From Mobula hypostoma (taxonomy: Eukaryota), in assembly GCF_963921235.1 (NCBI RefSeq), contig NC_086097.1, forward strand, positions 176,888,001-176,952,000: 64,000 bases of DNA. The letters are read 5' to 3'. This document shows positions 1 through 53,904 of the stretch, in pieces (position 1 is the stretch's first letter; every line of letters begins with the position of its first letter). Below the pieces are notes generated by a model. The model made no database searches and was not told where the DNA came from. It worked only from the letters and a program-made list of their open reading frames with translations. The position numbers and the translations under genes are program-made.

Positions 1-455
1 TGGAATTATACAACATACTGACTTCCGGTAATTGCTCCCCTTCCCCCCCCCCACCCCCTTCACCATTCCCATTCCTGTTTCACTCTCTCACCTTATCTCC
101 TTACCTGCCCATCACTTCCCTCTAGTGTTCCTGCCCCGTCCCTTTCGTCCATGGTCTTTTACCCTCTCCTATCAGATACCCACTTCTCCAACCCTTTATC
201 TCTTTCACCTATCAGCTTCCCAGCTTTTTACTTCACCCCTCCCCTCTCCCAGTTTCACCTATCACCTTGCACTTCTTTCTCCCCTCCCCCCACCTCTTGC
301 TCTAACTTCAAATCTTTTTTTTTACAGATTTGATGATGTGTCTCAGCCCGAAATGTTGACTGTTTACTTTTCCATTGATGCTGCCTGGCCTGATGAGTTC
401 CTCCAGCATTTTGTATGAATTGATTGGATTTCCAGCATCTGCGGATTTTCTCGTC
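1..455 (+). mobile_element. Penelope-like element 3' terminal fragment (pyrimidine-rich 3' region, decayed hammerhead, terminal stem-loop)
   Basis: TGATGA..CCCGAAATGTTGACT at ~331-361, then GATGCTGCCTGGCCTG..CCAGCATCTGC; same layout as the 3' end of the RT/GIY-YIG element at 40467-43700. Confidence 0.8.
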
Positions 456-4157: not shown

Positions 4158-4458
4158 CGACCTGGTGATGGCTATTGCCTGCACCTTCTGTGGCACAAGT
4201 TTTATTTGCCACAGAGGAAGCAGACCATGTCAGAATGGTGCCAAGGGCCTCCTGCAGGCAGACAAGTTCAAGTTTCAAGTTTAACTACCATTCAAGCTTA
4301 CATGAATATAGCCAAATGAAACAGCATTTCTGCAGGGCCAATATGCAAAACACTTTACCAACAGCACACAGCACATTGCACATAGCACTTACTGTGACAC
4401 ATAGCACGTATGGTAACAATTTCAGGAAAAGATGCAGTCACAATGAGAACAAAATATA

Positions 4459-4592
4459 CACGAACACGAGGAAATCTGCAGATGCTGGAATTTCAAGCAA
4501 CACACATAAAAGTTGCTGGTGAACGCAGCAGGCCAGGCAGCATCTCTAGGAAGAGGTACAGTCGACGATTCAGGCCAAGACCCTTCGTCAGG
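4459..4592 (-). mobile_element. Micro-insertion of PLE 3' end (hammerhead plus terminal stem-loop only)
   Basis: Reverse complement of the PLE terminus; flanked by ACAAAATATA at 4449-4458 and 4593-4602. Confidence 0.85.
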
Positions 4593-5540
4593 ACAAAATA
4601 TAGCCCATGTTGTCCTGTTCCAGCTTGTTCTTCTGCCAAGCGAACACTGGAGGGCAGCACCAACAGGCGGGGCCAGTGCCAACCCAATACGAAATCCAGA
4701 GGCACACAGACAGCTCTGGTATCTCTTTCACCAACAACGGCATCAGGCGAGTCCAGGGCATGTGGGCCTTGTTCACGCGATAACCGAGGCAAGACAGCTC
4801 TCCTGCCTTCAGCTGCTTCACTTGCTGGGGAGATGTGAATTGAGTTAAGGACTGTGCACTCATTATTAAACAACACTACTGCGCTGTGGGCACAGCTCAG
4901 CATATCACTAAAACCAGCCTCTCTCCCTTGTCTCTGTCTACACCTCTCACTACTTTGGTAAAAGAGAGAACATAATCAAAGACCCCTCCCAACCCACTCA
5001 TTCTCTCTTCTCCCCTCTCCAAGGGCAGAAGATACAAAAAGCCTGAAAACACGTAACACCGGGCTCAAGGTCAGCTTCTAACCCACTGTTATAAGTCTAC
5101 AGGCAGTCTGTTATATCGATAAGGTGCACTCTTGATTTCACAATCTCCCTCATTATGGCTTTGCATTTTGTTTGTCCCCCTGCAATGCACTTACTCTGTA
5201 ACTGTAACACTATACCTTGTACTACAGTATGATTTGTACAGTATGCAACACAAGCTTTTCACTGCACCTCAGTGCAGGTGAAAATTGTAAAGTAATTGCA
5301 ATCCAATTGTGATAGAAGGAAGGTCACCGATGAAGCAGATGAAGATGGCTGGTTGTGGGATACTGCCCTGATATTTGCCACAGAGGAAGCAGTCTGTGAG
5401 AGAATGGTGCCGAGGCCCTCCTGCAGGCAGATAAGTTCAAGTTTCAAGTTTAATTATCATTCAAGCTTGCATGAATATAGCCAAATGAAACAGCATTTCT
5501 CCGGGGCCAATGTGCAAAATGCTTTACCAACAGCATACAG

Positions 5541-7450: not shown

Positions 7451-8502
7451 ATTCCTGCAGTGATGTCTCCGGCGAGGGCGTGCTTTCCTCTTCGTACCCA
7501 TTGACCAGCTTACCTTAGATTCCTCGCTCAATCAAATGCATTTTTATAAAGAGCAGTCACTCTTCAGTCCTTGGTCCATATTGGTGCCAAAGACTGTGAG
7601 GAATCTGGAGTCCACACTGACAATCAAATATCCATTCACACCAATTCTGACGAAGGGTCTTCTGACATTAGGTGTCCAATTACATCCACAGGTTCTGCTC
7701 GATGCACTGAGTTCCTCCAGCAGATTGTTTTTTTGTAGCTGATTCCCAGCGTCCACAGTCTCTTAGGTCAACACTAACCCCCACATTCTGACCATTTCCC
7801 CCGGATTCTGCCACTCCCCTACACAGGAGGGAGGGGATTTCCCTGGGTCACCGGACTGGTGAGGCATCACCTCTATCAGCTGTGCCACTGCACCTCCAAC
7901 CCCACAAGGTACTTTTAAAAACCTATATGTCTGACCAACTCTTTAGTCACCATGCCTAATGTCTTCTGGAGGGAAGTGTTGAAATTTTTGGTTGAAAGCC
8001 TTCATCTGGACTGGAAGTTGGAGGGGAGATAAACATGATGAAAAGGTGAGGGAAGGGGTGGAATAAGAGCTAGCAGGGGATGGGTGGGTCCAGGTGAGGA
8101 AAGGTTATAGGCTTCCTCTTGCTCACAATCTGCATGTTATTCCGTATTGTAGACAAATATGCCAACAATACAAAAGTGTGTGGGGAAGCAAGGGTGCGGG
8201 TGATGAAGAACAGGCAAACAGATAAAGTCAGGACATATGTTCAAAGGAGGGGGTGTAAAGTTTTGCTCTTTGCCTGGAAGAATAAAATCGCCGATATTGA
8301 ATTCTCTGTCATCAATATCCTTAGAGTCACTGCTGACCAGAAACTCACCCGGATCAATCAAATGAATACCATGGTTACGGGCAAGTCAGAGTAGCCAGTG
8401 AGTATGGTGTATTCAGTGCATTTTGTAGATGATACACACTGCAGCCACAGTCAATCAAAGTTTAGGGTGGGGTGTGGGTGTCAGTCAAGTGGGTAGTGTT
8501 GT

Positions 8503-8960: not shown

Positions 8961-9209
8961 TGGTCTTAAGTTTCTTAAACGTTGTTGGAGCTGCACTCAT
9001 CCAGACAATGGAGAGTGCTCCATCAGACTCCTGGCTTCGTGCCTTGGAGGGGCCTTGGATATGAGACACTCACCATTGCATACTATATGTTCGAAGTGCA
9101 GGGAGATGGGTCTAGAGTGAAGATCAGGCCGGCATGGACTAGATGGGCCAAAGGGCCTATTTCTGTTCCATAGTACTTGGAGACTCTGTGACTCTATGAA
9201 TATAAAGGA

Positions 9210-9351
9210 CAACACAAAATACTCTGCAGATGCTGGGGTCAAACACGCTGGAGGAACTCAGCAGATCGGGCAGCATCCGTGGAAACAATCAGAAAACGTT
9301 TCGGGCCAGAACCCTTCATCAGAACTGAAGAGGGAAGGGGCAGAGGCCCTG
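9210..9351 (-). mobile_element. Short PLE 3' end insertion with hammerhead core
   Basis: Minus strand reads CTGATGA-AGGGTTCTGGCCC-GAAACGTT (9291-9326); 13-bp TSD TGAATATAAAGGA at 9197-9209 and 9352-9364. Confidence 0.85.
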
Positions 9352-10984
9352 TGAATATAAAGGAAATGGGGGTACATGAATAGTACACAGGTGGAGGACG
9401 TTAGGTACAAATCGGCATCAGGTTTGGCACTGCATCATGGGCCAAATGGCCCGCCCAGTGCCGAACTACTTCTAAGGGGTGAAGTTACAATTCCACTTCA
9501 CTGCATCATAACAACCACACTTTAAGTCCCATTTCACCAACTGTTCAGGAAATCCCTAGACTCACACAATGGGGAATATAAATGCAAGATTTTATTTCAT
9601 TACACAAGAGTCTTAGAAAGATCAGAGGTTCCATAAAAGCCTTCACTGTGGATTAAATTCTGTAACTAGCAATTCCACTAAAATTGGTTTCACTCTGATA
9701 TCCTAATTTGTTGGAATATTTTAACAGTAGGATCTATCTAGGTAAACTCTGCTCCAGATGTCCCTGTAAACTGGACTGGAGAGAGGAATCAGACAGGATT
9801 AGTTCCATTTAGCCTGTCAATCAATCTCTTTCTTTCCAAACTAAAATATGCAAATCACTGTCATATTTTAATTGAATTATCCTTTGAAGTAAATAGTCTA
9901 AATTATTCCGTCTAATGTTATGCAGCATATAACGTGATAGGTTTTGACTTCAGGGGAGCTTTCTGTCAGTATGCATCTAAAAATAGTGCCGCCAAGGCGA
10001 GCTTGCAGCTTCATCCCTGTCACACTTTATTTCCAAGCTAAGCATCGGCAAAACCCACAGCAGAAGGTGCAGATCAGGAAAGAACTCGATGAGTGTGGAT
10101 GGGGGAGGGATACAGGAGGGGGAGGGGCAGTAGATCAGAGAGGAGCAGTGAAAGGAATGGGGAGATTTATCTGTTTATTGAGATACAATACAGAATAGGC
10201 CCTTCTGTCCCTTTGAGCCTTTCCACACAGCAGCCCTAGCCTAATTACAGGACCATTTACAATGACCAATTAACCTACCGAGTACATCCTTGGGAGAAAA
10301 CTGGAGCACCCGAAGGAATCCCATGCGATTACTGGGAGACCACTCAGGCTTCTTACAGGCAATGGCGGGATGGAGAGAGTGGAAGTTGGGACGCCGGTAG
10401 TGGAGGGAGTAGGGCTGTAGGAGGTTAGAAGATGGGACAGAGGCAATGGAGGGACTGGGAAAGGATGGAAAGGGTTGGTAGATGGGATGGAATAATAGAA
10501 GCAGTGGGGAGAAATGGAATAAACAGTCAATGTTTTGGGCGGAGACCTTTCTTTAGGACTCAGTAGTGGACCAAGCTCAGTGCAGCACAGAAAGCACCTC
10601 CATTGTCTCTACACTTCTTGCTGCCTTAGTAAGGCAGCCAGTGTAATGAAAGACCCCACCCACCCCTGACACCTTCACCTTCCTATTAAGCAGAAAATAC
10701 AAAGGCCTGAAAGCAAAACCCACTAGGCTCAACGGCAGCTTTTTTGCTTCTGTTACAAGACAATTGATCCCCTAGTATGATAAAATGTACTCCTGACTTC
10801 ACAATCTACCTCATTATGTTCAGGCAAGGCAGCAGCTGTGGAGAGGAATAAACAGTTGATGTTTTGGCTTGGGCCCTTTCATCATGACTGCAAAGGAAGC
10901 GGAGTGAGGGGGAGGAGTACGAGCTGGCAGGAGATAGGTGAGACCAGGTGAGAGGGAAGGTGAGTAGGTAGGGCAATTTAGAAT

Positions 10985-16984: not shown

Positions 16985-17021
<37 letters not shown>

Positions 17022-17392
17022 TTTCTCCCTCTGTCCCTCTCACTATAACTCCTTGCCCATCCTTTGGGCTCCCCTCCCCCTTTCTTTCTCCCTAGGCCTC
17101 CCGTCCCATGATCCTCTCCCTTCTCCAGACTCGTATCCCTTTTGCCAATCAACTTTCCAGCTCTTGGCTCCATCCCTCCCCCTCCAGTCTTCTCCTATCA
17201 TTTCGGATCTCCCCCTCCCATTTTCAAATCACTTACTATCACTTCTTTCAGTTAGTCCTGACGAAGGGTCTCGGCCCAAAATGTCACCTGTACCTCTTCC
17301 TATAGATGCTGCCTGGCCTGCTGCGTTCACCAGCATTTTTTGTGTGTGTTGTTTGAATTTCCAGCATCTGCAGATTTCCTCGTGTTTGCGTT
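16218..17392 (+). mobile_element. 5'-truncated Penelope-like element (RT C-terminus, GIY-YIG, 3' end)
   Basis: ERGFPSS..RVPLVLTYHP; ORF 16602-16928 has VIYCVQCSRCDLLYIGETQHRLGDRFAEH; decayed hammerhead at 17254-17290. Confidence 0.92.
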
Positions 17393-17576: not shown

Positions 17577-18945
17577 CAAACAAGAGAAAGTCTGCAGATG
17601 CTGGAAATCGAAGTATACACACAAAATGCTGGAGGAACTCAGCAGGCCAGACAGTAGCTATGGAAAAGAGTAAACAGTTGACTTTTCAGGTCAAGGCCCT
17701 TCATCAGGACTGGAAAAAGGAGATTGAAAATCAAAGTCAGAAGGTGGGGGGAGGAGAGGAAGGAGTACAAAGTAATAGTCAAGTCAAGTCATGTCTAGTC
17801 GCTTCTTATTGTCATTTTGACCATAAGCTGCTAGTACATTACACAGTAAAAACAAAACAATGTTCCTCCAGGACCATGGTGCTACATGGTGATAGATGAT
17901 AGGTGAAACTGGGAAAGAGGGAAGGGTGAAGTGAAGAGCTGGGAAGACAATGGTGAAAGAGATAAAGGGCAGGAGAAGGTGTAATCTGATAGGAGAGGAC
18001 TGAAGGCCATGGAAGAAAAGGAAGGGGGAGGAGAACCAGAGGGAGGTGACGGGCAGGTAAGGAGATAAGGTGAGAGAGGGATATGGGAATGGAGAATGGT
18101 GAAGGAGAATGGGCAGTGGGGAGGACAATTACCAGAAGTTTGAGAAATCTAAGTTCATGCCATCAGGTTGGAGGCTACTCAGATGGAATATAAGGTGTTG
18201 TGCCTGCAACCTGAGTGTGGCTTCATCATGGCAGTAGAGAAGGCCATGGACTGACATGCCTGAATGGGAAAGGGAAGTAGAATTGAAATGGGTGGCCCCC
18301 AGGACATCCTGCATTTTATAGTGGACTGAACACAAGTGCTTGGCAAAGTGGTCTTCTAAACTATGTTAGATCTTACAATATACAAGAGACCACACCGCGA
18401 GCACCAGATACAGTAGATAATTCCAACAGACTGATAGGTGAAGTATCACCATTCCTGGGAGGACTTTTTGGGACCATGAATAGTAGTGAGGGAGGAGGTA
18501 TAGGAGCAGGTGTTTCGCTTGCAAAGATGAGTGCCAGGAGGGAGATCAGTGGGGAGGAACGAGTGGACTAGGGAATTGTATAGGGAAGCAGAAATGGGGG
18601 GTGGAGGGGAGTGAAAGATGTTCTTGGTGGTGGGATCCCTTTGGAGATAGTGGAGGTTATGGAGAATGTTCCTTTCAGTCCTCTGCTATCAGATTCGCCC
18701 TCTGCCAGTCCTTTATCTCTTTCACCAATTGACTTCCCAGTTCTTTACTTCGCACCTCTCCCTCTCCCGGTTTCACCTATCACCTACTATCTTGTACTTC
18801 TTCCTCTCCTCCCCCCACCTTCTTACTCTGACATAATCTCTTTTTTCCCAATGAGGGGTCTTGGCCTGAAAAGCTGACTATTTACTCTTTTCCATTGACG
18901 CTGCCTGGCCTGCTGAGTTCCTCCAGCGTTTTGTGTGTATTACTT
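17577..18945 (-). mobile_element. Older PLE copy with an inverted 3'-end segment; Rex1-type tail nested at ~17778-17888
   Basis: Minus-strand GIY-YIG remnant (ORF 18129-18335) running to ~18668, then a plus-strand PLE 3' end at ~18670-18945; near-TSD TG(T/C)ATTTTATTG at 17565-17576 and 18946-18957. Confidence 0.75.
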
Positions 18946-24736: not shown

Positions 24737-25073
24737 AACACAAGAAATTCTGCGGATGTTGGAAATCCAGAGCAACACACACCAAATGTTGAAGGAACTC
24801 AGCATCAAAGGACATGAATAAACAGTCAACTTTTCAGGCTGACGCCCTTCTTCAGGAAAGGAAAGGAAGGGGAAAAGTACTAGAATAAAAAGGTGGGGGG
24901 GATGGTAAGGAGGACTAGCCAGAAGGTGATAGGTGAAGCTAGGTGGGTGGGAAAGGTAAAGGGCTAGAGAGGACGGAATCTGATAGGAGAGCAGAGTGGA
25001 CCTTATGAGAAAGGGTAGGAGGGGCACCGGGGAGTTGACAGGCAGTTGAGGAAAAGTGGTAGGAGACCAGAGT
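24737..25073 (-). mobile_element. PLE 3' fragment
   Basis: Reverse-complemented PLE terminus with decayed hammerhead at ~24824-24858; TSD AAAGAAAT(T)CTTA at 24724-24736 and 25074-25085. Confidence 0.8.
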
Positions 25074-26235: not shown

Positions 26236-27404
26236 TGATCACCACATTAGTGTGGAAGGACCCGGTGATGTTGCTGGTAATGTGGACCCAAAGGAACCTG
26301 AAGCTGTCGACAATCCCTACAGCAATTCTGTTTTGAGGACAGCATTTATGGTCACGTCCCTGCTACCTTACATCAACAACCATCTGTTTCATTTGCTGAC
26401 TTTAAGAGTTAAGAGTTAGGTTGTTGTTCTAACAGCGGAACAAAGGATTTGTGATTCCTTTCCTGTACTCTAGCGGGAGAATCAGTTTGACTGTTTACAG
26501 AGTGCTCTCCTCTTGAAAAATTGTATCTCCCATTGCAGAGACGTGTCATGAGCACAGTGACCTTGAATGCCATTGGCTGACTTTCTCAGCCATCTTGACT
26601 ATTTCTTTCTGGTACAGGAAGACTCCCATCTGAATCTCCGCCTCTTCCCAACGATATTCCTTTCTCAAATGCCAGTAAAACAGGCTCAGCAAAGGTCAGA
26701 GATGTATTCACATGTCTTGACTCTCTCCAGTCCTTTGTTATAGACTTCAAGTGGAAAGAGCCAACCCAGACACAACGTGCTACTGTTCTCTTTTCTTTGT
26801 CTTTGTCTCACAAATGTTGAGATCTCTTCATACCTTTGAAACAAGATTTTTTTTTAAAGAGCCACTTAGTGATTATATTCAAAAAGTTCAAGATTTCAAG
26901 TGCTTTGCCAATTGGTTTAGAGCTTGAGGGGCCAGATTAAGACTTGGGACTTTAATACCGCATTCTACACAAGCTTAAATGAGTTGTAAACCTGTCAAGA
27001 TTACAGACAAGTAGATTGATTCATGTGCTGTAGTCTTGCAAATGCAGCTAACAAGCAAGGTGTCCTTGCCATGACCTGGAAACCAGTGGAAAGCAAAGTG
27101 TGGGCTGCAATTGGCGTTCTGCTTTCATCAGCCTAATTGACAGCTGAAAATTAAAGATTCTGACACACATGTGTCCAGTATAATGACACCTTGGGAGGAT
27201 AACCTTAATTGAATTGATAATCTTGGATTAGTTTCTGATAGCTCTGTCTCTAATGAGGCATTGAGCAATAAAACTGCAAAGTTGTATGCTTTACCCCTCA
27301 TAATCAAAAGGGGAATTCCAAAACTACTGCTTAAAATGATTCAAAAAAGGTGGAGGATTTAAAGAAATACAAATCTTCACAAAGTATGTGGAAAGAAACA
27401 GAGA

Positions 27405-29431
27405 GGAATTAAAGGCAGATTGAATAGGAATAAGGAACCTTGGTTCTCAAGAGATATTGCAACTCTGATAAAGAAGAGGGAGTTGTATGAAATGTATAGG
27501 AAACAGGGGGTAAATCAGGTGCTTGAGGAGTATAAGAAGTGCAAGAAAATACTTAAGAAAGAAATCAGGAGGGCTAAAAGAAGACATGAGGTTGCCTTGG
27601 CAGTCAAAGTGAAGGATAATCCAAAGAGCTTTTACAAGTATATTAAGAGCAAAAGGATTGTAAGGGATAAAATTGGTCCTCTTGAAGATCAGAGTGGTCG
27701 GCTTTGTGCGGAACCAAAGGAAATGGGGGAGATCTTAAATAGGTTTTTTGCGTCTGTATTTACTAAGGAAGCTGGCATGAAATCTATGGAATTGAGGGAT
27801 TCAAGTAGTGAGACCATGGAAACTGTACAAATTAAAAAGGAGGTGGTGCTTGCTGTCTTGAGGAAAATTAAAGTGGATAAATCCCCGGGACCTGACAGAG
27901 TGTTCCCTCGGACCCTGAAGGAGACTAGTGTTGAAATTGCAGGGGCCCTGGCAGAAATATTTAAAATGTCGCTGTCTACGGGTGAAGTGCCGGAGGATTG
28001 GAGAGTGGCTCATGTTGTTCCGTTGTTTAAAAAAGGATCGAAAAGTAATCCGGGAAATTATAGGCCGGTGAGTTTAACGTCAGTAGTAGGTAAGTTATTG
28101 GAGGGAGTACTAAGAGACAGAATCTACAAGCATTTGGATAGACAGGGGCTTATTAGGGAGAGTCAACATGGCTTTGTGCGTGGTAGGTCATGTTTGACCA
28201 ATCTGTTGGAGTTTTTCGAGGAGGTTACCAGGAAAGTGGATGAAGGGAAGGCAGTCGATATTGTCTACATGGACTTCAGTAAGGCCTATGACAAGGTCCC
28301 GCATGGGAGGTTAGTTCAGTCGCTAGGTATACATGGAGAGGTGGTAAATTGGATTAGACATTGGCTCGATGGAAGAAGCCAGAGAGTGGTGGTAGAGAAT
28401 TGCTTCTCTGAGTGGAGGCCTGTGACTAGTGGTGTGCCACAGGGATCAGTGCTGGGTCCATTGTTATTTGTCATCTATATCAATGATCTGGATGATAATA
28501 TGGTAAATTGGATCAGCAAGTTTGCTGATGATACGAAGATTGGAGGTGTAGTAGACAGTGAGGAAGGTTTTCAGAGCCTGCAGAGGGATTTGGACAAGCT
28601 GGAAAAATGGGCTGAAAAATGGCAGATGGAGTTTAATACTGACAAGTGTGAGGTATTGCACGTTGGAAGGACAAACCAACGTAGAACATACAGGGTTAAT
28701 GGTAAGGCACTGAGGAGTGCAGTGGAACAGAGGGATCTGGGAATACAGATACAAAATTCCCTGAAAGTGTCGTCACAGGTAGATAGGATCATAAAGAGAG
28801 CTTTTGGTACATTGGCCTTTATTAATCGAAGTATTGAGTATAAGAGCTGGAATGTTATGATGAGGTTGTATAAGGCATTGGTGAGGCCGAATCTGGAGTA
28901 TTGTGTTCAGTTTTGGTCACCAAATTACAAGAAGGATATAAATAAGGTTGAAAGAGTGCAGAGAAGGTTTACAAGGATGTTGCCAGGACTTGAGAAACTC
29001 AGTTACAGAGAAAGGTTGAATAGGTTAGGACTTTATTCCCTGAAGCGTAGAAGAATGAGGGGAGATTTGATAGAGGTATATTATGATGGGTATAGATAGA
29101 GTGAATGCAAGCAGGCTTTTTCCACTGAGACAAGGGGAGAAAAAAACCAGAGGACATGGGTTAAGGGTGAGGGGGTAAAAGTTTAAAGGGAACATTAGGG
29201 GGGGCTTCTTCACACAGAGAGTGGTGGGAGTATGGAATGAGCTGCCAGACGAGGTGGTAAATACGGGTTCTTTTTTAACATTTAAGAATAAATTGGACAG
29301 ATACATGGATGGGAGGTGTATGGAGGGATCTGGTCCGTGTACAGGTCAGTGGGACTAGGCAGAAAATGGTTCGGCACAGCCAAGAAGGGCCAAAGGGCCT
29401 GTTTCTGTGCTGTAGTTTCTATGGTTCTATG
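27405..29431 (+). mobile_element. Young 5'-truncated CR1 LINE
   Basis: Open RT frame, 3' UTR and (TTCTATGG)2 tail; many CpGs retained. Confidence 0.95.
27420..29099 (+). CDS. CR1 ORF2 reverse transcriptase (no APE domain; 5'-truncated; small indel near the C-terminus)
   Basis: KSPGPD, PGNYRPVSLTS, QHGF, YMDFSKAYDKV, GVPQGSVLGPLLF, KFADDTK and LEYCVQFWSP motifs. Confidence 0.92.
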   Translation: MNRNKEPWFSRDIATLIKKRELYEMYRKQGVNQVLEEYKKCKKILKKEIRRAKRRHEVALAVKVKDNPKSFYKYIKSKRIVRDKIGPLEDQSGRLCAEPKEMGEILNRFFASVFTKEAGMKSMELRDSSSETMETVQIKKEVVLAVLRKIKVDKSPGPDRVFPRTLKETSVEIAGALAEIFKMSLSTGEVPEDWRVAHVVPLFKKGSKSNPGNYRPVSLTSVVGKLLEGVLRDRIYKHLDRQGLIRESQHGFVRGRSCLTNLLEFFEEVTRKVDEGKAVDIVYMDFSKAYDKVPHGRLVQSLGIHGEVVNWIRHWLDGRSQRVVVENCFSEWRPVTSGVPQGSVLGPLLFVIYINDLDDNMVNWISKFADDTKIGGVVDSEEGFQSLQRDLDKLEKWAEKWQMEFNTDKCEVLHVGRTNQRRTYRVNGKALRSAVEQRDLGIQIQNSLKVSSQVDRIIKRAFGTLAFINRSIEYKSWNVMMRLYKALVRPNLEYCVQFWSPNYKKDINKVERVQRRFTRMLPGLEKLSYRERLNRLGLYSLKRRRMRGDLIEVYYDGYR

Positions 29432-31102: not shown

Positions 31103-32139
31103 AATATTTTTTGCATGCTATCCATTCAGATATTTCAAATCAAAATTATATTTAAATAATACAACCTGAAAAGCAATAACAGAATGCAGAAATGTAGTGT
31201 TATATTTACAGAGCAAGTGTGGACTGCAGGTAGACAATAAAGAGCAAGGCCATAACAAGGTACTTTGTGAGATCAAGAGTCCTTCTTTATCTTACAAGGG
31301 ATCCATTCACACACCTTAAAACAGCAAAATAGAAGCTGTTGTTGGGCGTGGAAGTTTGTGTCTACAAGCTTACATTAGAGAAGTAGATCTTAAGGATCAT
31401 TGTCATGGATGACGGAGTTTGAGAAGCTGAGAGAGGGAATTGCAAAACTAATGGCCTTGACAGCTGGACACTGACTTGACTGTAGTGGAGTCCAGGAAAC
31501 GGGGCTGATTAAAAAGTCAGAACTGAATGAACGCAGGGACCTGGGCAGGGTAGTAAGGCTGGAGATGCTACAGAGATAAAAAAAAGTGTACATCATGAAG
31601 GAAATTGCAAACTATGGTATAAAATAAAAAAATAACATACTTTCACTAGGAACAAACCATGCAAACTTATTTTGTGAGTTATAAGAAGCAATTTCTGATG
31701 TAATTGTCTTGGAAAAGGGGAGGAGAAAGAATAATGAACAAAGCTATATGGATAGTGAGTGTGCGGTTGTGATATCCGGGGTTTCAACAGCAGTGCAATA
31801 TGCGTTGTCATTTCAGCAGGAATTAAAATCCATCTGCAACAGCACTTCATACTGACTTTTTAATAACTTCTCGAAAAACTGATTTCACTCTGATATTTGC
31901 AAGGTAAGATTTGTTACCAGTATTGAATCATTGGATGCTAGAGTCATAGAATTTCAGAGCAATGCAGCACAGACCATCCACCCACTTCAAAAGTACATTA
32001 GATATGCAGTTATACAGTCTGATAAGAACAGACCTTTCTGGTTTCTGCCCCCTTCCTTTCATTTACCGATAAAGTGTCTCGGCCCAAAATATCATCTGCT
32101 TTTTGCTCTCCATAGGTGCTGCCTGACCTGCTGAGTTCA

Positions 32140-35725: not shown

Positions 35726-38700
35726 ACCTGTGAATTTGTTAGAGACAACAGCAGGAATTTAAACCTGATCTTACAGCTGGCACTGTGAAGTATTACACTA
35801 ACTACTATGCTATCATGCCATCTACATTACACATCGTACTGTGAATAATAAAGACAGGCATGCTGCCGTAAGCCTCTTGACCTCCCCATCAACCTGTGCA
35901 GTCACTTTTGTAGAGCTACGTTTTAAAACCCCGAGATCCTTCTGTACATCAGCACTGTTAAGTATTCAACATTCAAAGATACAGCATACATTTATTATCA
36001 AAGTTTGTACAGAGAATACAACTCTGATATTCATTCTCTTACAGACAGCTATGAAACAGAGAAACACCATGGAACCCGTTCAAAGAAAACATCAAACACC
36101 CAATGCACAAAAAAAATGAGCAAATTGTGCAAACGGAAAAGAGCGAGCAAATAAGATGTGGAACGTTAAACATCAAACCAGGAGCCCCAGAGTATTCAGT
36201 TCAGTTCAGTTTCATGCTGCTAGCCAACTGCAGTCTGCAATGATCACCCTGATCAAACTGCTCAAAAACAGCAAAAGAAAGAGTAACCAGAATCCAGATA
36301 TATAGACAACATGAAACTTAAATTCCCCCAAAAGGAATCCAAGGCCTTGACTCTCACCGATCAATCCTTGCAACGTTGGACAGATTAGCTGTCCCTTTAC
36401 TTTTGATCTTACAAATTGCAACACCCTACTCTTGGCCAGATTAGCCCCAATCTGCCGATGACTACCTACAAAAAGATATTCATGTTTGACTGCTGCCCAG
36501 GCACCAGGGTTTGATTCTGAACTTGGATGCTAAATCTACACTCTCCTGATAATTATGTGGGTCACCCCCCTCTCCGACTACCCCTCTGCTCCAGATGCTC
36601 ATGGTAAGAAGGGATATTGACAGAATAACTTGCAGGGGCTCAGGAGAATAAAGGGAGAGGGAATGGGGTTAAACCAACTCAGAATCGGGTTTATATCACT
36701 GGCATGTCATGAAATTTGTTAACTTAGCAGCAACAGTACAATGTAATCCATGACAAATGTAGAAAGAAAATAAATAAATGAGTCACAGTTAGTATATATG
36801 CATATTAAATAGTTCAATTTTAAAATAGTAGTGCAAAAACAGCAATAAAAAAGTGAGGTAGTGTTCATGGGTTCAATGTCCATTTAGAAATTGGATGGCA
36901 GAGGGGAAGAAGCTGTTCCTGAATTTCTGAGTATATGCCTTCAGGCTTCTGTACCTCCTGTGATGGTAACAAGCATGTCCTGGGTGCTGGGAGTCCTTAA
37001 TAAAGGACGCCGCCTTTCTGAGGCACTGCACCTTGAAGATGTCTTGGATACTACGGAGGCTAGTACCCGTGATGGAGCTGATAGTTTTCTGTGTAATTTT
37101 ACAGCTCCAGTGATGTCAGTCCAACAGTAAGATGGAACTTAATTCTGATAAGTGACTGGGCACCTAGTGTCATAGAACAATACAGCACAGATACAGGTCC
37201 TTCAGCACAACCAGTCCATGCTGGCAACAGTCTCCATCCAGCTAATCTCAATTCCATGAGTTCATACCCCTCTAAATCCCTTCTTAAATGAGATTACTGT
37301 ACCTGACCTAATCACTTCCACTCCTCTGGCAGTTCATTCCATATATTCACCACCCTCTGTGTGATAAAGTTGCCCCTTGGATCTCTTTTAAATCTGACCC
37401 CTTTCACTTAAACATATGTTCCCCCTCCCACCTAGTTTTGGACTCCCCCACCCAGGAGAAAAGATTGTTACCATCCATCTTAACTATACATTTCATAATT
37501 TTAAACCCTTCTTTAAGGTCACCCCTCTTTCTCCTATGCTCCAAGGAATAAAAACCTAGCCTGGTGTACCTCTCCCTATAGTTCAGACCTTCTAGTCCTG
37601 GCATAAATCTTCTTTTCACTCCTTGCAGCCTAACCATGTGTTTTCTGTAATAGGGTGACCAGAAATGTATATGTTACTCCAAGTGCCTCCTCACTAATGA
37701 CTGGGCAATGAGGATGCTGGAATTTAGAGCAATAAGTGCAATCCACTGGTGGAACTCAGCAGGCTGAGAAGCATTTGTGGGAACAAAGGGATGCTCGACA
37801 TTTCAGTATGAGACCCTGTATTAGTACTGAAAGAGAGGAGAAGACAGCCAGTATAAAAAGAGTAGAGGAAGTGTGAGACCGTGGCTGACGGGTGATAGGT
37901 AGGTTATGAAGGGCTGAAAGATGATGGATGAGTATGAAATGGGAGGGGTGATGGTGGAGCTGGGTGAGGAGAATCAGATTGCAAGTGGGGAGAGTAGATG
38001 TTGATGATAAAATCAAGGGAGTGGATTGAAAGGCAGAAACATAAAGGCTGACAGAGTTAGAATCTGATAAGCAATCCCCATTCTAAATGGACATCCTTCT
38101 ATTCTGAAGCTGTGCTCTCTGGTACTAGACTCCCCCACTGTACAAAACATCCTCTCCACATTCATTCTATCTAGACCTTTCAACATTCAATATGTTTCAA
38201 TGAGATCCCCCCCCCCTCATTCTTCTGAATTCCAGTAAGTACCGGTCCTGAGCCATCAAATACTTCTCACGTTAACTCTTTCAATCTCAAAATCACTTTC
38301 ATGCACCTCCTCTGAACCCTATCCAATGACAGCACATTCTATTTTTCGTTAAAGGGCCTAAAACTGTTCACAATACACCACTTTCACTTTTTTTACTTCT
38401 TCTTTCAAATATGATTCATCTACTACTGGAAACTATGATCTACCTATTGATGGTGTGTTTTTGGGCAAAATGAGCAACCTGGCACTTTGCTGTCTCCGAG
38501 AGATTTCAATAAGGTTTCCAACAGAGTATGCAGTCTGGAGATGGGGCACGAGCCCATGATTGACTCCATTTCTCACAGATCTCACCGACTAAAGCCTCGA
38601 GGAAGATTGAAATCAATGAGGATGAGAGTGGAAGATGAGCAGGGGTCAGAGCCGTATGCCTGAGTGTGACCGGTTGGTCTCTCTCTCTCTGTCTCTCTCG

Positions 38701-39900: not shown

Positions 39901-40561
39901 TAAGGAAAGTACTCAAAGGCTACAGTACAACGTTATTGAGCAAATACAATGGGTAAGACTATCTCAGATGGAATTTAACCCTGATAAGTGTGAGGTGATG
40001 CACTTTGGAAGAAATAATAATGTTCGAACATACACAGAGAATGATAGGAACAGCAGACCCTAAATGCGCAAGTCCAAGGAAGGTGAAGGCTGAGGTACAT
40101 GAGGTGATGATTCAGGTATTCACGATGCTTGCCTTCATGGACTCATTGAGTCATAAAGCACAGAATTACCCCATTCGGCCCAAACCATACACCCTGACCA
40201 GTGGGCACCATCAGATCTTTCAACATTTGGCCCATAGTCTTCACTACTTGATCGTTTAGATACCTCATAAACACTGCCGGTGACTCTGCTTCCAACTTCT
40301 GTAGATGTGTGATGGAGAGTATACCGACCAGTTACATCACAGCCTGGTATGGAAAATCCTACAAAAAGTAGTGGATATGGCTCAGTCCATCGCGGGTAAA
40401 GCCCTTCCCACCTTTAAGCACAACGACACAGAACACTGTTGCAGGAAAGCAGCATCTATCATCAAACAACAGGAATTCTGCAGATGCTGGAAATTCAAGC
40501 AACACACATCAAAGTTGCTGGTGAACGCAGCAGGCCAAGCAGCATCTGTAGGAAGAGGTGC

Positions 40562-40597
40562 AGTCGACGTTTCAGGCCGAGACCCTTCATCAGGACT
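40562..40597 (-). ncRNA. Minimal type I hammerhead ribozyme
   Basis: AGUC-CUGAUGA-AGGGUCUCGGCCU-GAAAC-GUC-GACU: complete core, stem I AGUC/GACU, palindromic ACGU stem III. Confidence 0.85.
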
Positions 40598-40896
40598 AAC
40601 TGAAGGAAGAGTGAGTAAGGGATTTGAAAGTTGGAGGGGGAGGGGGAGATCCAAAATGATAGGAGAAGACAAGAGGGGGAGGGATAGAGCCGAGAGCTGG
40701 ACAGGTGATAGGCAAAAGGGGATACGAGAGGATCATGGGACAGGAGGTCCGGGAAGAAAGACAAGGAGGTGGGGGGGGGACCCAGAGGATGGGCAAGAGG
40801 TATATTCAGAGGGACGGAGGGAGAAAAAGGAGAGTGAGAGAAAGAATGTGTGCATAAAAATGAGTAACAGATGGAGTACGAGGGGGAGGTGGGGCC

Positions 40897-43700
40897 TTAG
40901 TGGAAGTTAGAGAAGTCGATGTTCATGCCATCAGGTTGGAGGCTACCCAGACGGAATATAAGGTGTTGTTCCTGCAACCTGAGTGTGGCTTCATCTTTAC
41001 AGTTGAGGAGGCCATGGATAGACATGTCAGAATGGGAATGGGATGTGGAATTAAAACGTGTGGCCACTGGGAGATCCTGCTTTCTCTGGCGGACAGAGCG
41101 TAGATGTTCAGCAAAGCAGTCTCCCAGTCTGCGTCGGGTCTCGCCAATATATAAAAGGCCACATCGGGAGCACCGGATGCAGTATATCACCCCAGTCGAC
41201 TCACAGGTGAAGTGTTGCCTTACCTGGAAGGACTGTTTGGGGCCCTGAATGGAGGTAAGGGAGGAAGTGTAAGAGCATGTGTAGCACTTGTTCCGCTTAC
41301 ACGGATAAGTGCCAGGAGGGAGATCAGTGGGGAGGGATGGGGGGGATGAATGGACAAGGGAGTTGTGTAGGGAGCGATCCCTGCGGAATGCAGAGAGGGG
41401 GGGGAGGGAAAGATGTGCTTAGTGGTGGGATCCCATTGGAGGTGGCGGAAGTTACGGAGAATAATATGTTGGACCCGGAGGCTGGTGGGGTGGTAGGTGA
41501 GGACCAGGGGAACCCTATTCCTAGTGGGGTGGCGGGAGGATGGAGTGAGAGCAGATGTACGTGAAATGGGGGAGTTGCGTTTAAGAGCAGAGTTGATAGT
41601 GGAGGAAGGGAAGCCCCTTTCTTTAAAAAAGGAAGACATCTCCCTCGTCCTAGAATGAAAAGCCTCATCCTGAGAGCAGATGCGGCGGAGACGGAGGAAT
41701 TGCGAGAAGGGGATGGCATTTTTGCAAGAGACAGGGTGAGAAGAGGAATAGTCCAGATAGCTGTGAGAGTCAGTAGGCTTATAGTAGACATCAGTGGATA
41801 AGCTGTCTCCAGAGACAGAGACAGAAAGATCTAGAAAGGGGAGGGAGGGGTTGGAAATGGACCAGGTAAACTTGAGGGCAGGGTGATAGTTGGAGGCAAA
41901 GTTAATAAAGTCAACGAGTTCTGCATGCGTGCAGGAAGCAGCGCCAATGCAGTCGTCAATGTAGCGAAGGAAAAGTGGGGGACAGATACCAGAATAGGCA
42001 CGGAACATAGATTGTTCCACAAAGCCAACAAAAAGGCAGGCATAGCTAGGACCCATACGGGTGCCCATAGCTACACCTTTAGTTTGGAGGAAGTGGGAGG
42101 AGCCAAAGGAGAAATTATTAAGAGTAAGGACTAATTCCGCTAGACGGAGCAGAGTGGTGGTAGAGGGGAACTGATTAGGTCTGGAATCCAAAAAGAAGCG
42201 TAGAGCTTTGAGACCTTCCTGATGGGGGATGGAAGTATATAGGGACTGGACATCCATGGTGAAAATAAAGTGGTGGAGGCCAGGGAACTTAAAATCATCG
42301 AAAAGTTTAAGAGCGTGAGAAGTGTCACGAACATAGGTCGGAAGGGATTGAACAAGGGGTGATAAAACAGTGTCGAGGTATGCAGAAATGAGTTCGGTGG
42401 GGCAGGAGCAAGCTGAGACAATAGGTCTGCCAGGACAGGCAGGTTTGTGGATCTTGGGTAGGAGGTAGAAACGGGAAGTGCGGGGTGTGGGAACTAAAAG
42501 GTTGGTAGCAGTGGATGGGAGATCCCCTGAGCGGATAAAGTCAGTGATGGTGTGGGAGACAATGGCCTGGTGCTCCTTGGTGGGGTCACGATCGAGGGGT
42601 AAATAAGAGGAGGTATCCGCGAGTTGTCGCTGTGCCTCGGCAAGGTAGAGGTCAGTACGCCAGACTACAACAGCACCCCCCTTATCGGCGGGTTTAATAA
42701 TAAGGTTAGGATTAGTGCGGAAGGAGTGGAGAGCAGAGCGTCCCAAAGGAGTGAGGTTGGAATGGGGACAAGCTGCGGTGAAGTCGAGACGGTTGATGTC
42801 CCGTCGGCAATTAGCGATAAAGAGATCCAGAGCAGGCAGGAGACCAGAGCGGGGTGTCCATGAAGAAGAGGAGGGTTGAAGACGGGAGAAGGGGTCACCG
42901 GTGGGGGTGGAAGAGTCCGTGCCGAAGAAGTAGGCTCGGAGACGGAGACGGCGGAAGAAAAGTTCCGCATCATGGCGAACACGGAACTCGCTGAGGTGTG
43001 GGCGAAGGGGGACAAAGGTGAGGCCCTTACTGAGAACTGAGCGTTCTGCCTCCGACAGTTGAAGGTCGGAGGGGTTGGTAAAGACCGGGCACGGATGAGA
43101 GCTGGGATCAGAGGGGGGAGGGGGGAGGCTGGGGGTGTCAATGGAGAGGGGAGGGTTGGGGTGAGAGGAAGATGGAGCCTCTGAGGGCCCAGGAGTTGAT
43201 GGTGGGATCTGAGGAAGACGGGGCTGCGGAGTGGTGGTGGGGGAAGGGGAGACGGGAGTCACAACAGCAGCACATAAAGACCCGGCCTGGAGTTCAAGGC
43301 TGGAATCTTGAGAGCTGGGATCAGAGGGGGGAGGGGGGAGGCTGGGGGTGTCAGTGGAGAGCGGATGGTTGGGGTGAGAGGAAGATGGAGCCTCCGAGTA
43401 CCCAGGAGCTGACGGTGGGATCTGAAGGAGACGGGATTGCAGAGTATTGGTGGGGGAAGGGGAGACGGGAGTCACAATAGCAGCACATAAAGACCCGGCC
43501 TGGAGTTCAAGGCTGGCGTCACAGTTGGTGGTTGCGCAATCGCTGTGAAGGTGTCCATGCTCGTTGCTGGAGTCCGGGTTTTGAATATGTCCTGAGGTGT
43601 TGGAGCCGGCGAGATCAATGGCAGCGGCCGCAATCTGAAGTTCATGCCTGCTAGCGTCGGGGCCGGCAGGCTCTGGAGTCCGTAGATGTAGGATCTTGCG
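40897..43700 (-). CDS. PLE polyprotein (RT, Cys-rich linker, GIY-YIG) with one frame break at the C-run at ~41397-41404
   Basis: LSKGLTF, PADKG, LPKIHK..GRPIVS, DVQSLYTSI, GVAMG, RYIDD and YYKPT motifs; after a one-base shift it reads SAFRRDRSL..CKRNKCYTC..VIYCIRC..YIGET to the stop at 40897. Confidence 0.9.
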
Positions 43701-43969
43701 ATCTATCATCAAAGATCCCCACCACCTAGGCCATGCTTTCTTCTTGCTGCTGCCATTGGGAAGGTGGTACAGGAATCTCAAGACCCACACCACCAAGTTC
43801 AGGAACAGTTACTACCTCTCAAATGTCAGGTTGTTGAACCAGATGGGGTAACTTCACTCGACTTCACTTGCCCCATCACTGAACTGTTCCCACAGCCTGT
43901 GGACTCACTTTCAAGGACTTTTCATCTCATGTTTTCGATATTTGTTTTGTATTTGTACAGTTTCCTCCG

Positions 43970-50320: not shown

Positions 50321-51729
50321 TCTCCCCTCAAAGTACATTTATGTATTGTCAAAGTATGTGGGCAGTATACAACCCAGGGATTCATCTTCCCACAGGCAGC
50401 CACAAAACTAAGAAAGGGAGGTCATGGAACCCGCTTAAAGGAAAACATCAAACCCCTATCAGGCAAAAAGAAGAATAAATCACACAAACGGCAAAAAAAC
50501 ACAGGATATAAAACACCAGACAACAAATTATCCAACCAGTCCAGGCACATCAGTTCAATGGAGCTCCATGTCTTTCATTAACTTCAGACACAGAGCCAGT
50601 CAACCCCGATCAAAATCACCCAAAATAGCAACAAAAGAAGGAGTGACCAGAAACCAGAAACACATCATAACGTGAACTACAGAGTCCAATCCACAAACTG
50701 CATCAATTACACCTCGCACAAGACCCAGGACGTAGGCACCATCCTCTGGCAGCATTGGGCGAGAGGGGGAGAGAGACCATTCGAACATAGGGACCTTCCT
50801 CCAGGCCAGTGGATGAGAGGGCAAGAGAGACCATCACACCCAGACACCTTCTTCCAGCAGCTGAGAGAAAGAGGTTGGTAGATGGCGCTGAACACCTGCT
50901 CGCCTCACGCTTATCATCTCGATGATTTCAATCTTCATCAACACTTTAATTGGCAAGATCAGCAAGAAATGGAGATGACCACGGGCTCGCGCCTTATCTC
51001 CTAGCTGCACACTTCACCCGAAACCTTACGGAACCCCCTCAGAGACAGCAAAGCATCAGATCACACAATCAGTCCAAAAACACACCATTAAAATTTAAAT
51101 CACAGGCTCCAACAGCAGCAGAACCACATTTGAGAGAAAAGCAAGTGAAAGGAGTAGTTTCTCTTGAAAGAAGTTCTGATGCCGGACTCCGAAACAGAAG
51201 TCACAGGATCACAGTTGCAGGTATTTGCACAGGTGTAGTTTCATTCTCTCTTTCAAAGTGTGTATGAAAGGCATTGAGCTCATCTGGGAACGAAGGATCA
51301 TTGCTGTTCAAGTTGTTGGTTTCTCCTTGTAGGAAGTGATGGCCTGCAAACACTGGCAGAGCTGACATACTGTACGTCCAATTCCATCTCTAACTTCAAT
51401 CAGAATTGGTTTTTATTTCACCCTTAAAATAGCCTTCCATAGGTTATATCTGGACTCCGTGTAAAGTTCTGGATCACTGGTCTTGAATGCCACAGATCTA
51501 GCCCTCAGAAGACTATGAATTTCTTAGTTCATCCACAGCTTTTGGTTTGGGTATGTCCTGATCTGATGAGTATTTCCAGTATTTCCACTTTGATCCATAC
51601 TGGTAGGTTTAGTCGCCCTCTAAGCAAGACAGATCTACACCCCTGAAAAACAGACAGAGCTTTCCAATAACCCAGTAGGTTTGTGGTCAGTGTTGCTGAT
51701 GTGACAAGAATACACATAGATAAGATGTT

Positions 51730-52138
51730 TGCACAGGTGTAGTTTCATTCTCTCTTTCAAAGTGTGTATGAAAGGCATTGAGCTCATCTCTGTCCCTCTG
51801 AATATACCTCTTGCCCATCCTCTGGGTCAGCCCCCCCCTCGTCTTTCTCCCTAGGCCTCCTGTCCCATGATCCTCTCGTATCCCCTTTTGCCTATCACCT
51901 GTCCAGCTCTCGGCTCTATCCCTCCCCCTCCTGTCTTCTCCTATCATTTTGCATCTCCCCCTCCCCCTCCAGCTTTCAAATCCCTTACTCACTCTTCCTT
52001 CAGTTAGTCCTGACGAAGGGTCTCGGCCTGAAACGTCGACTGCGCCTCTTCCTATAGATGCTGCTTGGCCTGCTGCGTTCACCAGCAACTTTGATGTATG
52101 TTGCTTGAATTTCCAGCATCTGCAGAATTCCTGTTGTT
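51730..52138 (+). mobile_element. PLE 3' end with a 62-bp duplicated local segment at its 5' junction
   Basis: TSD TAGATAAGATGTT at 51717-51729 and 52139-52151; body nearly identical to the reverse complement of 40467-40817. Confidence 0.9.
52006..52041 (+). ncRNA. Minimal type I hammerhead ribozyme
   Basis: AGUC-CUGACGA-AGGGUCUCGGCCU-GAAAC-GUC-GACU; predicted cleavage after 52037. Confidence 0.85.
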
Positions 52139-53904
52139 TAGATAAGATGTTAGCTGTCCTGTGTGATCAGCAGTTGGTCTGCCACCTGTCTTCAAGAGAG
52201 AGATAAGGAACACAATGAAACAGCATCTGGAGATGTGTAATGAAGGGACGGGAGAGAGAGCTGTCTGGAGCGGCTCTCCCTTTGAACCCTGAACTGTTTG
52301 AAGTGATGGACAGGCGATACCCCAGCAGGGGGATAAAAAGGGACAGGTTCGCTAAGGCAGGACACACGACACCCGAGGTAACGAGACCCTGGAAGCGGTG
52401 CGCCTCTCATGAATTGGTGGGAAGTACCGGACAACGCACAGGGTGGAAAGGTACGATCAGCGGGAACCCGGTGTGTGTCCGCCCTTGCTTGGGTGCCAGG
52501 TTCACTGCAGAGGATCGACCGCATCTGGAGGAGGGGTCACAGTCGGTGACCTCAGGTGACATCACCAAGGACCCGCCCAAAAGCTGCTTGTGAGCCATAG
52601 CGCCGGTCTGTGAGTGGAAGCTGTTTCTGAATGATCAGTTGTTCCCGTTCTCTCTCTCTCTCCCCCCCACGTTGTCCATCGCCATGGCAACGATTACTGC
52701 GAACTGAATTGGACTGAACTTTTGTGTCACTTTGAAATGTGGTCATTTACCCCTAGACAACGATAGAACTTGATTGATGCTGTTATTTTAAATTCTGTGC
52801 ACATGTGTGTTTATCATTGCTGAACTGTTGCATTTATTATCCTTTCGATTACTGTGTTGCTTGTTTCTTTAATAAAACTTTCTTAGTTCTAGTAATCCAG
52901 ACTCCAACTGAGTGATCCATTTCTGCTGGTTTGGCAACCCAGTTACGGGGTACGTAACACTGAGATTTACATTTTATACCAGGATCTACTGAATTACTTG
53001 AATTTAAATTGGCTGGTTTGGAGGATTACGTTTGAACTCACGTCTCTGGATCAGTGCTCCAGGACAACTCTCTGCTGAAGAACTCCAAGGGCACTGCTGC
53101 TAACCCTATACCAATCACCCCTAACTATCTATCTCTCCTGTGAGACTTCAGCCAAGCAATTAAAATATTCCCTCTACTCTGAGCTAGCAAGCAGCTGCAC
53201 AGTCCCAGAGAGGGTCTTTTGCACAATCTATTTATTTCTGTAACTGATAGCTGTTTTTAATGTATTGCACTGTACTGCTGCAGCAAAACAACACAGTTCA
53301 GGGCATATGTCAGTGATAATAAAGCTGATTCTGAATCGAATTCCGTCCACCCTTCCTTCTGCTGAGTCCTTCTACACTCCTTGCTATCTCAGGAAAGCAG
53401 CCAAGAACCACTCCCACTTTGGTCATTCTCCCTTGTCTCCCCATCCCATCGGGCAGAAGATAGAGGCCAGAAGACACATACCACCAGCCTGAAGGTCAGA
53501 TCCTATCCCACTACTAACAGACTCGCATGCACTGAAGATGAACTCCTGATCTCCCAATCTACATCATTGTGACCCTTGCACCTTACTTGGCTATGTCCCA
53601 TTATACTTCCTCTGTACTGTAAGATTATCTTCTGCATTTTGTTATCCTTTTTTCTAGCAGTAAGTGAAATGTTATTTTACAATACATTCTTTCCATGGTT
53701 CTGGAGATTATTCCTAAATTCTAAGAGAAAGTATTTTTCAGCTGTTGCCAAACTACAAAGATTAAATATCATTCTTTTGTACAGGCTCCTGACTCTGCTA
53801 CAGATTCAAAACCTCCATTCAAAGTCTCAAAGCTTATTCTCTATTCTGTGATGATCCCTGACTTCGTACCCAGTTGAAAAGCTTGTATCCTTTGAAACAG
53901 TGAC

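What the first reader, a model, noticed from the sequence alone, without database searches (positions are those of the whole stretch)
40562..40597. Dense family of minimal, probably dimer-dependent hammerhead ribozymes at PLE 3' ends
Seen: AGUC-CUGANGA-A-GGGUcucgGCCU-GAAAC-GUC-GACU is intact at 40562-40597(-) and 52006-52041(+). The core is intact at 9291-9326(-). Decayed copies lie at ~331, 4560, 7647, 10525, 10855, 17254, 17675, 18850, 24824 and 37795. Stem III is only AC|GU, a loopless palindrome, and there is an extra A after CUGANGA. Known: PLEs carry minimal type I hammerheads whose palindromic stem III is thought to fold as a dimer. Inference: at roughly one copy per 5 kb, any host transcript crossing two same-strand copies, or two transcripts in trans, could self-cleave.
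Basis: partly seen in the sequence, partly recalled or inferred. Interest (0 to 1): 0.72.

Follow-up and report, generated by a model that had tools for sequence, protein, structure and literature searches.

The report
Penelope-element minimal hammerheads, decaying copies
The motif is real: it is the small self-cutting "hammerhead" RNA already known from the tail ends of Penelope-like jumping genes, here in a ray-like fish, and most copies are decaying leftovers with no sign that they cut host RNAs.

Summary
Observation confirmed. The 36-nt minimal type I hammerhead lies at 40562-40597(-) and 52006-52041(+). A strict descriptor finds only these 2, and none in 100 control sequences. All listed decayed copies exist (15 motif-bearing copies, 9 minus, 6 plus). 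The named copy sits 299 nt after the stop codon of a 5'-truncated Penelope-like element with RT, Zn-finger linker and GIY-YIG region (Neptune-type anatomy), one frameshift and a 10-13-nt target duplication. Its RT region is 91% identical to a Mobula protein. This is the min-HHR of Cervera and de la Pena 2014. Insertions end about 102 nt past the cut site, so the copied RNA was uncut, as in the anole element. The 36-nt unit is held constant between subfamilies, but inserted copies drift: private non-CpG changes are 8/114 in the core versus 51/812 in the tail (p=0.69), and the catalytic G12 is lost about as often as loop CpG bases. The two intact copies face opposite ways, so no same-strand intact pair exists here. 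Host-RNA cleavage is unsupported. The scan reported this family before, in this genome and others. Known kind; low interest.

The parts
40562..40597 (-). Minimal type I hammerhead: stem I 4 bp (5 with a U-G), CUGAUGA, extra A, stem II 4 bp with G10.1-U11.1, GAAA, CG palindrome, UC; predicted cut between 40566 and 40565
40464..43712 (-). 5'-truncated Penelope-like element (Neptune-type anatomy) that carries the motif; flanked by a 10-nt duplication (13 nt with a shared TTT)
41220..43712 (-). PLE ORF, RT part (DKG, RT4, RT B and YIDD motifs); stop-free frame, shifted near 41400 in a C run
   Evidence: (RVT_1 E=2.9e-05, below cut-off)
40897..41418 (-). PLE ORF, C-terminal part in the next frame: CX4CxxC linker and GIY-YIG-type endonuclease region
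   Evidence: 49% identity to P0008 residues 637-801, E=2e-50; no Pfam hit on its own
40598..40896 (-). 299-nt pyrimidine-rich 3' UTR / pLTR body before the ribozyme
40464..40561 (-). Tail downstream of the ribozyme, with two potential stems (92% of cells paired, no covariation); defines the element's 3' end, about 102 nt after the cut site
   Evidence: (loose ends at 40463 in 4 of 4 runs)
52006..52041 (+). Second complete motif (CUGACGA, G10.1-U11.1), in a 5'-truncated copy 51788-52139, 94% identical to the first over 340 nt
9291..9326 (-). Older-subfamily copy: core bases, G10.1-C11.1 and palindrome intact; stem I 2 of 4 pairs
4560..4595 (-). Copy with A15.1>U, in a 135-nt insertion that starts at stem I and has a 10-nt duplication
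17254..17289 (+). Copy with G12>A and broken palindrome, at the end of a 1.2-kb PLE fragment 16218-17388
17676..17711 (-). Decayed copy: core bases intact, palindrome broken
24824..24859 (-). Decayed copy: core bases intact, palindrome and stem I broken
326..361 (+). Decayed copy (C3>U)
7643..7678 (+). Heavily decayed copy with an internal deletion
10525..10560 (-). Decayed copy (G5>A, G12>A)
10854..10889 (-). Decayed copy (C3>A, G12>A)
18844..18879 (+). Decayed copy (3 core changes), after a PLE fragment
37793..37828 (-). Decayed copy (3 core changes)
32062..32097 (+).
7977..8012 (-).

Best explanation
The motif is the minimal hammerhead (min-HHR) in the 3' pseudo-LTR of a very abundant Neptune-type Penelope-like retrotransposon of a cartilaginous fish, probably a ray. 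Shown here: it lies 299 nt after the ORF stop. Every copy that keeps its tail runs on past the cut site. The element ends about 102 nt downstream in A/T-rich sequence, with 10-13-nt target duplications, and most copies are 5'-truncated. Inferred from the anole element: the GIY-YIG domain nicks A/T-rich DNA and reverse transcription starts in the tail of an uncut RNA. Early truncation then leaves tail plus ribozyme as the commonest fragment, which explains the density. The 36-nt unit is under selection only in the active master lineages. There it most likely cuts tandem precursor RNA slowly, as a dimer joined through the ACGU palindrome and/or helped by the element's protein; a lone copy folds into an inactive rod. 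Once inserted, copies decay neutrally, mostly by CpG deamination, which hits the CpG-rich motif hard.
For: Anatomy matches every min-HHR trait in PMC4209133. PLE context. Fixed 3' end: loose ends at 40463 in 4 of 4 runs, 102 nt past the cut site, paralleling internal RT initiation on uncut RNA in PMC11167929. Target duplications. Lineage-level constraint: loose ends pile up at 40561-40563 and 40595-40597, the two edges of stem I, so other subfamilies share just this unit; all non-CpG differences are 11/114 in the core versus 139/812 in the tail, p=0.04. Copy-level neutrality: private non-CpG changes 8/114 versus 51/812, p=0.69. G12>A is 2.4, 2.4, 11.7 and 10.8% of contig depth, against 2.5-11.1% for the two loop CpG bases. 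Inactive rod fold of the monomer.
Against: No cleavage was measured. No tandem element with paired pLTRs lies in the window, so dimer formation in the precursor is taken from the literature. There is no covariation signal among 11 window copies: 478 of 500 shuffles reach the observed score. The neutrality test rests on 13 copies of mixed subfamilies, and the contig depths are only rough weights, with 22 of 62 variant rows hidden. Clade assignment is by motif, not by tree.
Confidence: 0.85

Rival explanations
1. Dispersed copies act on host RNA: two same-strand copies in one pre-mRNA, or two transcripts in trans, form the double hammerhead and cut host transcripts at a rate that matters.
For: Density is high (15 in 64 kb). 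The dimer needs only the enzyme half of one copy and the substrate half of another: the 5' half of 9291(-) can in principle pair 5 bp of stem I and the 4-bp palindrome with the 3' half of 40562(-). A 2026 preprint reports exclusion of related retrozymes from introns in Xenopus, read as selection against genic insertion.
Against: The only two complete copies are on opposite strands. The 9291/40562 pair is 31 kb apart, and its active fold is 8.7 kcal/mol above the free monomers. No strand bias. Core decays neutrally. Even adjacent dimers cleave weakly, and 8 of 9 Xenopus dimer elements did not cleave. No reads ended at the cut site in anole RNA-seq. No host gene was established here.
Confidence: 0.06
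2. In the subfamily of the two intact copies the ribozyme is vestigial or tuned down. It is kept as part of a protein-binding or RT-start structure, and cleavage plays no part in transposition.
For: U at 11.1 makes up 81% and 72% of depth in the two closest run sets while G12>A is only 2.4%, so G10.1-U11.1 was amplified, not merely decayed. Insertions derive from uncut RNA. HHR mutants do not affect insertion in vitro, and Naiad PLEs spread without canonical HHRs.
Against: G-U at this pair occurs in several published min-HHR representatives. All catalytic positions are retained in the amplified subfamily, and the shared unit ends exactly at stem I.
Confidence: 0.2
3. The short copies are a separate non-autonomous family (non-LTR retrozyme or SINE-like), released by ribozyme cleavage.
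For: Several short copies begin near the 5' edge of the motif. Retrozymes derive from PLE pLTRs.
Against: No tandem array overlaps any copy. Most short copies keep pyrimidine-rich pLTR-like sequence upstream and keep the uncut site. No pile-up at the cut site is seen among the 24 loose-end rows shown, though 789 are hidden.
Confidence: 0.08
4. The hammerhead resemblance is chance.
For: No Rfam hit; folding z-score near 0.
Against: 0 hits in 100 controls for both a pattern and a structural descriptor. The position in a PLE pLTR and all secondary traits match the published class. Rfam models and single-strand folding are not expected to see a motif that lacks stem III.
Confidence: 0.01

Closest known systems
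Minimal hammerheads (min-HHR) of metazoan Penelope-like elements (Cervera and de la Pena 2014, PMC4209133)
   Same: Type I; no helix III; palindromic 15.2-16.2; extra base between 9 and 10.1; short stem I; U-rich 5' flank; in the 3' pLTR of 5'-truncated copies; thousands of dispersed single motifs; reported from Neptune, Poseidon and Xena elements. The coral Neptune example in Fig. S3 has almost the same layout.
   Different: No cartilaginous fish among the Fig. S3 rows read. Stem II is 4 bp, at the short end. The amplified subfamily has G-U at 10.1-11.1, a minority state in Fig. S3. Density here (1 per 4.3 kb, counting decayed copies) is higher than the 4,000-9,000 descriptor hits per genome quoted there, but the two counts are not made alike.
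PAc, Poseidon PLE of Anolis carolinensis (Frangieh et al. 2024, PMC11167929)
   Same: HHR in the pLTR; insertions end roughly 85-100 nt past the cut site; A/T-rich targets; uncut RNA is the template.
   Different: PAc is Poseidon clade (no Zn-finger linker) and its ORF starts inside the HHR. Here N7 is mostly C (79-84% of depth in the closest runs), which removes the AUG at that place. Protein-assisted cleavage was shown there and is untested here.
Non-LTR retrozymes of animals (PMC7229834, listing only; bioRxiv 10.64898/2026.07.22.740005)
   Same: Type I HHR related to PLE pLTRs; found in one chondrichthyan genome in the preprint.
   Different: Retrozymes are tandem arrays with an HHR in each unit; the copies here are dispersed 3' fragments.

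Membership tests
PLE minimal hammerhead (min-HHR) | Core CUGANGA, GAAA and UH in type I order | tested here: met
   All 11 core bases and H17 in 40562(-) and 52006(+), and in 3 more copies
PLE minimal hammerhead (min-HHR) | Stems I and II formable; G10.1 paired with 11.1 (G-C in the published consensus, G-U in several published members) | tested here: met
   4 of 4 and 4 of 4 pairs; the closing pair is G-U in both intact copies, C11.1 in 7 of 15 copies and 19-69% of contig depth
PLE minimal hammerhead (min-HHR) | Extra nucleotide between A9 and 10.1 | tested here: met
   A in 13 of 15 copies
PLE minimal hammerhead (min-HHR) | No helix III; palindromic 15.2-16.2 | tested here: met
   CG in the intact copies; other copies mostly show its CpG-decay products
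PLE minimal hammerhead (min-HHR) | Located in the pLTR of a PLE | tested here: met
   299 nt after the stop codon of the RT/GIY-YIG ORF; the 5' partner is absent because the copy is truncated
PLE minimal hammerhead (min-HHR) | Self-cleavage as a dimer or with protein help | not testable with these tools
   Only contigs were available; needs an assay
Neptune-type EN+ PLE | PLE-type RT with DKG motif and C-terminal GIY-YIG endonuclease | tested here: met
   Motifs read; 1822 homologs among 8000 candidates, many with PF01541 (name GIY-YIG recalled); C-terminal frame 49% identical to P0008; Pfam alone did not hit this frame
Neptune-type EN+ PLE | CX2-5CxxC Zn-finger in the RT-EN linker (Neptune and Nematis, absent in Penelope/Poseidon) | tested here: met
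   CX4CxxC in frame 41418-40897; definition from PMC8557442
Neptune-type EN+ PLE | Grouping with Neptune rather than Nematis in an RT tree | not tested
   No named reference sequences at hand; Neptune is inferred from motif plus vertebrate host
Neptune-type EN+ PLE | Tandem or partial-tandem layout with two pLTRs | tested here: inconclusive
   All window copies are 5'-truncated; no genome held
Non-LTR retrozyme | Tandem units each with an HHR | tested here: not met
   None of the 16 tandem-repeat rows overlaps a motif
Rfam hammerhead families (canonical) | Covariance-model hit | tested here: not met
   0 hits at gathering in the window; no hammerhead family at E up to 10 in 40300-40900

The most novel reading that the evidence does not exclude
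Because the dimer needs only the enzyme half of one copy and the substrate half of another, and copies lie every 4 kb, half-broken copies could complement each other in long ray introns, perhaps when the element's protein is expressed. That would impose a genome-wide RNA-cleavage burden, visible as depletion of complete motifs on the sense strand of genes. The amplified G10.1-U11.1 subfamily would then be an attenuated form that escaped this burden.
Probability: 0.06. Interest if true: 0.6.

Novelty: new member of a known kind. Interest (0 to 1): 0.14.

Why it matters
As a kind it is known since 2014. The value lies in the numbers. A family with this many copies and several subfamilies lets one test, by counting alone, whether PLE hammerheads cut in vivo and whether they burden the host: strand bias in introns, 5' truncation peaks at the cut site, and core versus tail decay within subfamilies. 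In this window the answer leans to no host effect.

Tried and rejected
No whole genome is held, so no genome-wide count or intron strand test could be made. Rfam: nothing at gathering; two chance bacterial sRNA hits at E 0.14 and 7.5. Pattern scans of viral and metagenome contigs: 0. Protein-led scan of metagenome contigs: 3 distant loci of 95 candidates (31-55% identity), not examined further. Sequencing runs: no RNA holder listed on record; 24 rows, all contigs, so RNA ends at the cut site could not be tested, and table 6 was empty. Covariation in window copies: none (one search had one helix misnumbered by a column and is discarded). RNAalifold returned the inactive rod, not the hammerhead. 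Host-gene search: 134 of 247 ORFs of 70 aa or more were scanned, chosen to avoid evident repeats; 1 weak MUN hit (E=0.003), PDB CAPS1 E=0.56, no homolog, and the single library hit P0122 is a TPR-repeat protein, spurious. Lunse et al. (dimer cleavage) is not held and is cited only through a review. Literature searches for a cartilaginous-fish report listed none beyond the preprint's single chondrichthyan; one search was too broad (20 of 2,341 listed, none containing 'hammerhead ribozyme'). and the passages gave no rate data for G10.1-U11.1. One search held nothing on PLE motifs.

Full report
Observation. A 25-letter pattern gave 4 matches with up to 3 mismatches and none in 100 shuffles. A strict descriptor (core, optional extra base, stem II opening with G, 2-nt palindrome, UH, at least 3 bp of stem I) hit exactly these two places and nothing in 100 first-order Markov controls. 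Of 15 motif-bearing copies, 2 are complete. Three more keep all core bases but have lost stem I pairs (9291) or the palindrome (17676, 24824). Ten carry core changes, six of them G12>A, one of these in the poorly aligned 7643 copy. Nine are on the minus strand and six on the plus strand (p=0.61). Rfam finds nothing, which is expected of a motif without stem III (inference).

The carrier. The named motif starts 299 nt after the stop codon of a long ORF on the minus strand. The stop-free frame 43808-41220 holds the DKG motif and the RT core (Pfam RVT_1 E=2.9e-05, under the cut-off). Near 41400 the frame shifts in a C run. The next frame, 41418-40897, holds a CX4CxxC linker and a GIY-YIG-type region. 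It has no Pfam hit of its own but is 49% identical to the C-terminus of the intact homolog P0008 (E=2e-50). A search with the RT region gave 1822 hits among 8000 scored candidates, including 91% identity to a Mobula hypostoma protein, 88% to Hypanus sabinus and 70% to Chiloscyllium punctatum. The host is therefore a cartilaginous fish, probably a ray (inference). Craig et al. (PMC8557442, 12 passages) give the linker Zn-finger as the mark of Neptune and Nematis against Penelope/Poseidon; I call the element Neptune-type by motif and host, without a tree. It is 5'-truncated at 43712 and flanked by a 10-nt duplication, 13 nt with a shared TTT. The copy at 4560 is a 135-nt insertion with a 10-nt duplication, and the 52006 copy has a 12-13-nt one.

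The 3' end. Contigs of four public runs (8888, 4810, 28236 and 19084 laid at 82% likeness) leave the reference at 40463 into A/T-rich sequence in all four runs. That is 102 nt past the predicted cut. Copies thus carry the uncut site and the sequence beyond it. Frangieh et al. (PMC11167929, parts 1-2 of 4 read) showed the same for the anole Poseidon element. There, reverse transcription starts internally, 111-118 nt into an ORF whose HHR cut lies at +26. Targets are A/T-rich, HHR mutants insert normally, cleavage needs the protein, and no RNA-seq reads end at the cut site. The tail here can form two stems with 92% of cells paired in 11 of the 15 copies, but without covariation (478 of 500 shuffles as high), so a structured RT-start site is an inference.

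Selection. Two levels must be kept apart. Between subfamilies, the 36-nt unit is constrained. The best-supported loose ends lie at 40561-40563 and 40595-40597, the edges of stem I, so other families share this unit and differ immediately outside it. In the 13 non-intact window copies all non-CpG differences from the majority are 11/114 in the core against 139/812 in the tail (p=0.04) and 29/199 in the rest of the motif (p=0.22). Within inserted copies there is no constraint. Private non-CpG changes are 8/114 in the core, 13/199 in the rest of the motif and 51/812 in the tail (core versus tail p=0.69). In the contigs G12>A makes up 2.4, 2.4, 11.7 and 10.8% of depth, against 5.0, 6.2, 11.1, 9.1% and 2.5, 2.7, 7.7, 6.3% for the two loop CpG bases. 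It reaches 8.5-18% when referred to copies that still have C at 11.1. G12 is the general base (PMC6155905, passages). These depths are rough weights, and 22 of 62 variant rows were hidden.

This is within the published range: Fig. S3 of PMC4209133 (supplement parts 1-2 of 3 read) has G-U in Clonorchis, Schistosoma, cichlid, Xenopus, Lottia and Latimeria rows.

How it works. A monomer cannot close stem III and folds into a rod in which the UGAYG of the first core strand pairs across the cut site (-8.2 and -10.0 kcal/mol, z near 0). Two copies can in principle form the double hammerhead through the 4-bp palindrome and swapped stem I strands. The nearest-neighbour energy of that fold is -11.5 kcal/mol, 8-12 above two free monomers and 15-19 above the best co-fold. 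The model ignores core contacts and Mg, so this shows only that help is needed. That agrees with Cervera and de la Pena (PMC4209133, parts 1-2 of 4 read), who found no monomer activity and low dimer activity, and with a review (PMC6765202, passages) citing Lunse et al., which I could not read. Most likely the motif processes tandem precursor RNA of the active element at low rate, as a dimer and/or protein-assisted, and dispersed copies are by-products of 5' truncation. Shown: anatomy, position, uncut template, neutral decay. Inferred: cleavage, dimer, protein help.

The host-transcript idea. The two complete copies face opposite ways, so neither strand of this window carries two. The best same-strand pair, 9291 as enzyme half and 40562 as substrate half, can be drawn, but the copies are 31 kb apart and the fold is 8.7 kcal/mol uphill. 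I could not establish a host gene: 1 weak MUN hit among 134 ORFs scanned, not confirmed. In favour of some cost, a 2026 preprint (10.64898/2026.07.22.740005, parts 1 and 3 of 5 and passages; supplements not seen) reports retrozymes excluded from introns in Xenopus. Yet 8 of its 9 dimer elements did not cleave. The genome-wide strand test could not be run, so the idea is unsupported, not excluded.

Novelty. The kind, its dimer logic, its mass dispersal and its presence in fish Neptune elements were published in 2014. I found no description for cartilaginous fish in the Fig. S3 rows or in searches, apart from one chondrichthyan sampled in the preprint. Earlier notes of this scan report the same family repeatedly: 44 of 215 notes in this genome fit the words hammerhead and Penelope. 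They are unchecked and not used as support. Verdict: correct catch, new member of a known kind, interest 0.14.

Noticed in passing
window 51728-51789 and 51224-51285: The 5' junction of the 52006 copy carries an exact 62-nt duplicate of sequence lying 504 bp upstream, inside the target duplication; it looks like a template switch onto nearby DNA during insertion.
   Followed up: partly
window 26599-26820 (+): Short frame with a weak MUN-domain / CAPS-like resemblance and an acceptor-like site near 26618; a possible host exon, not confirmed by three homolog searches.
   Followed up: yes
window 43096-43516: A 213-nt in-frame tandem duplication (92% alike) in the Pro/Ser-rich N-terminal region of the PLE ORF.
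   Followed up: no
window 2124-4150: A C/A/T-rich minisatellite, about 50-nt unit, 37 copies, with strong GC skew and stop-free frames on the plus strand.
   Followed up: no
window 27363-29099 (+), 13207-14034 (+), 5481-6870 (+), 14124-14939 (+): LINE-type RT fragments (a 578-aa open frame at 27363) and an RNase H-bearing fragment at 14124.
   Followed up: no
window 17676-17711, 18844-18879, 24824-24859: Three older copies share A at 15.2, which breaks the palindrome; this change is not among the variant rows shown for the contigs, so it may be chance or a minor subfamily.
   Followed up: partly
window 4461-4595 (-): A 135-nt insertion with a 10-nt target duplication whose 5' end falls at the 5' arm of stem I, about 30 nt before the cut site.
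   Followed up: partly
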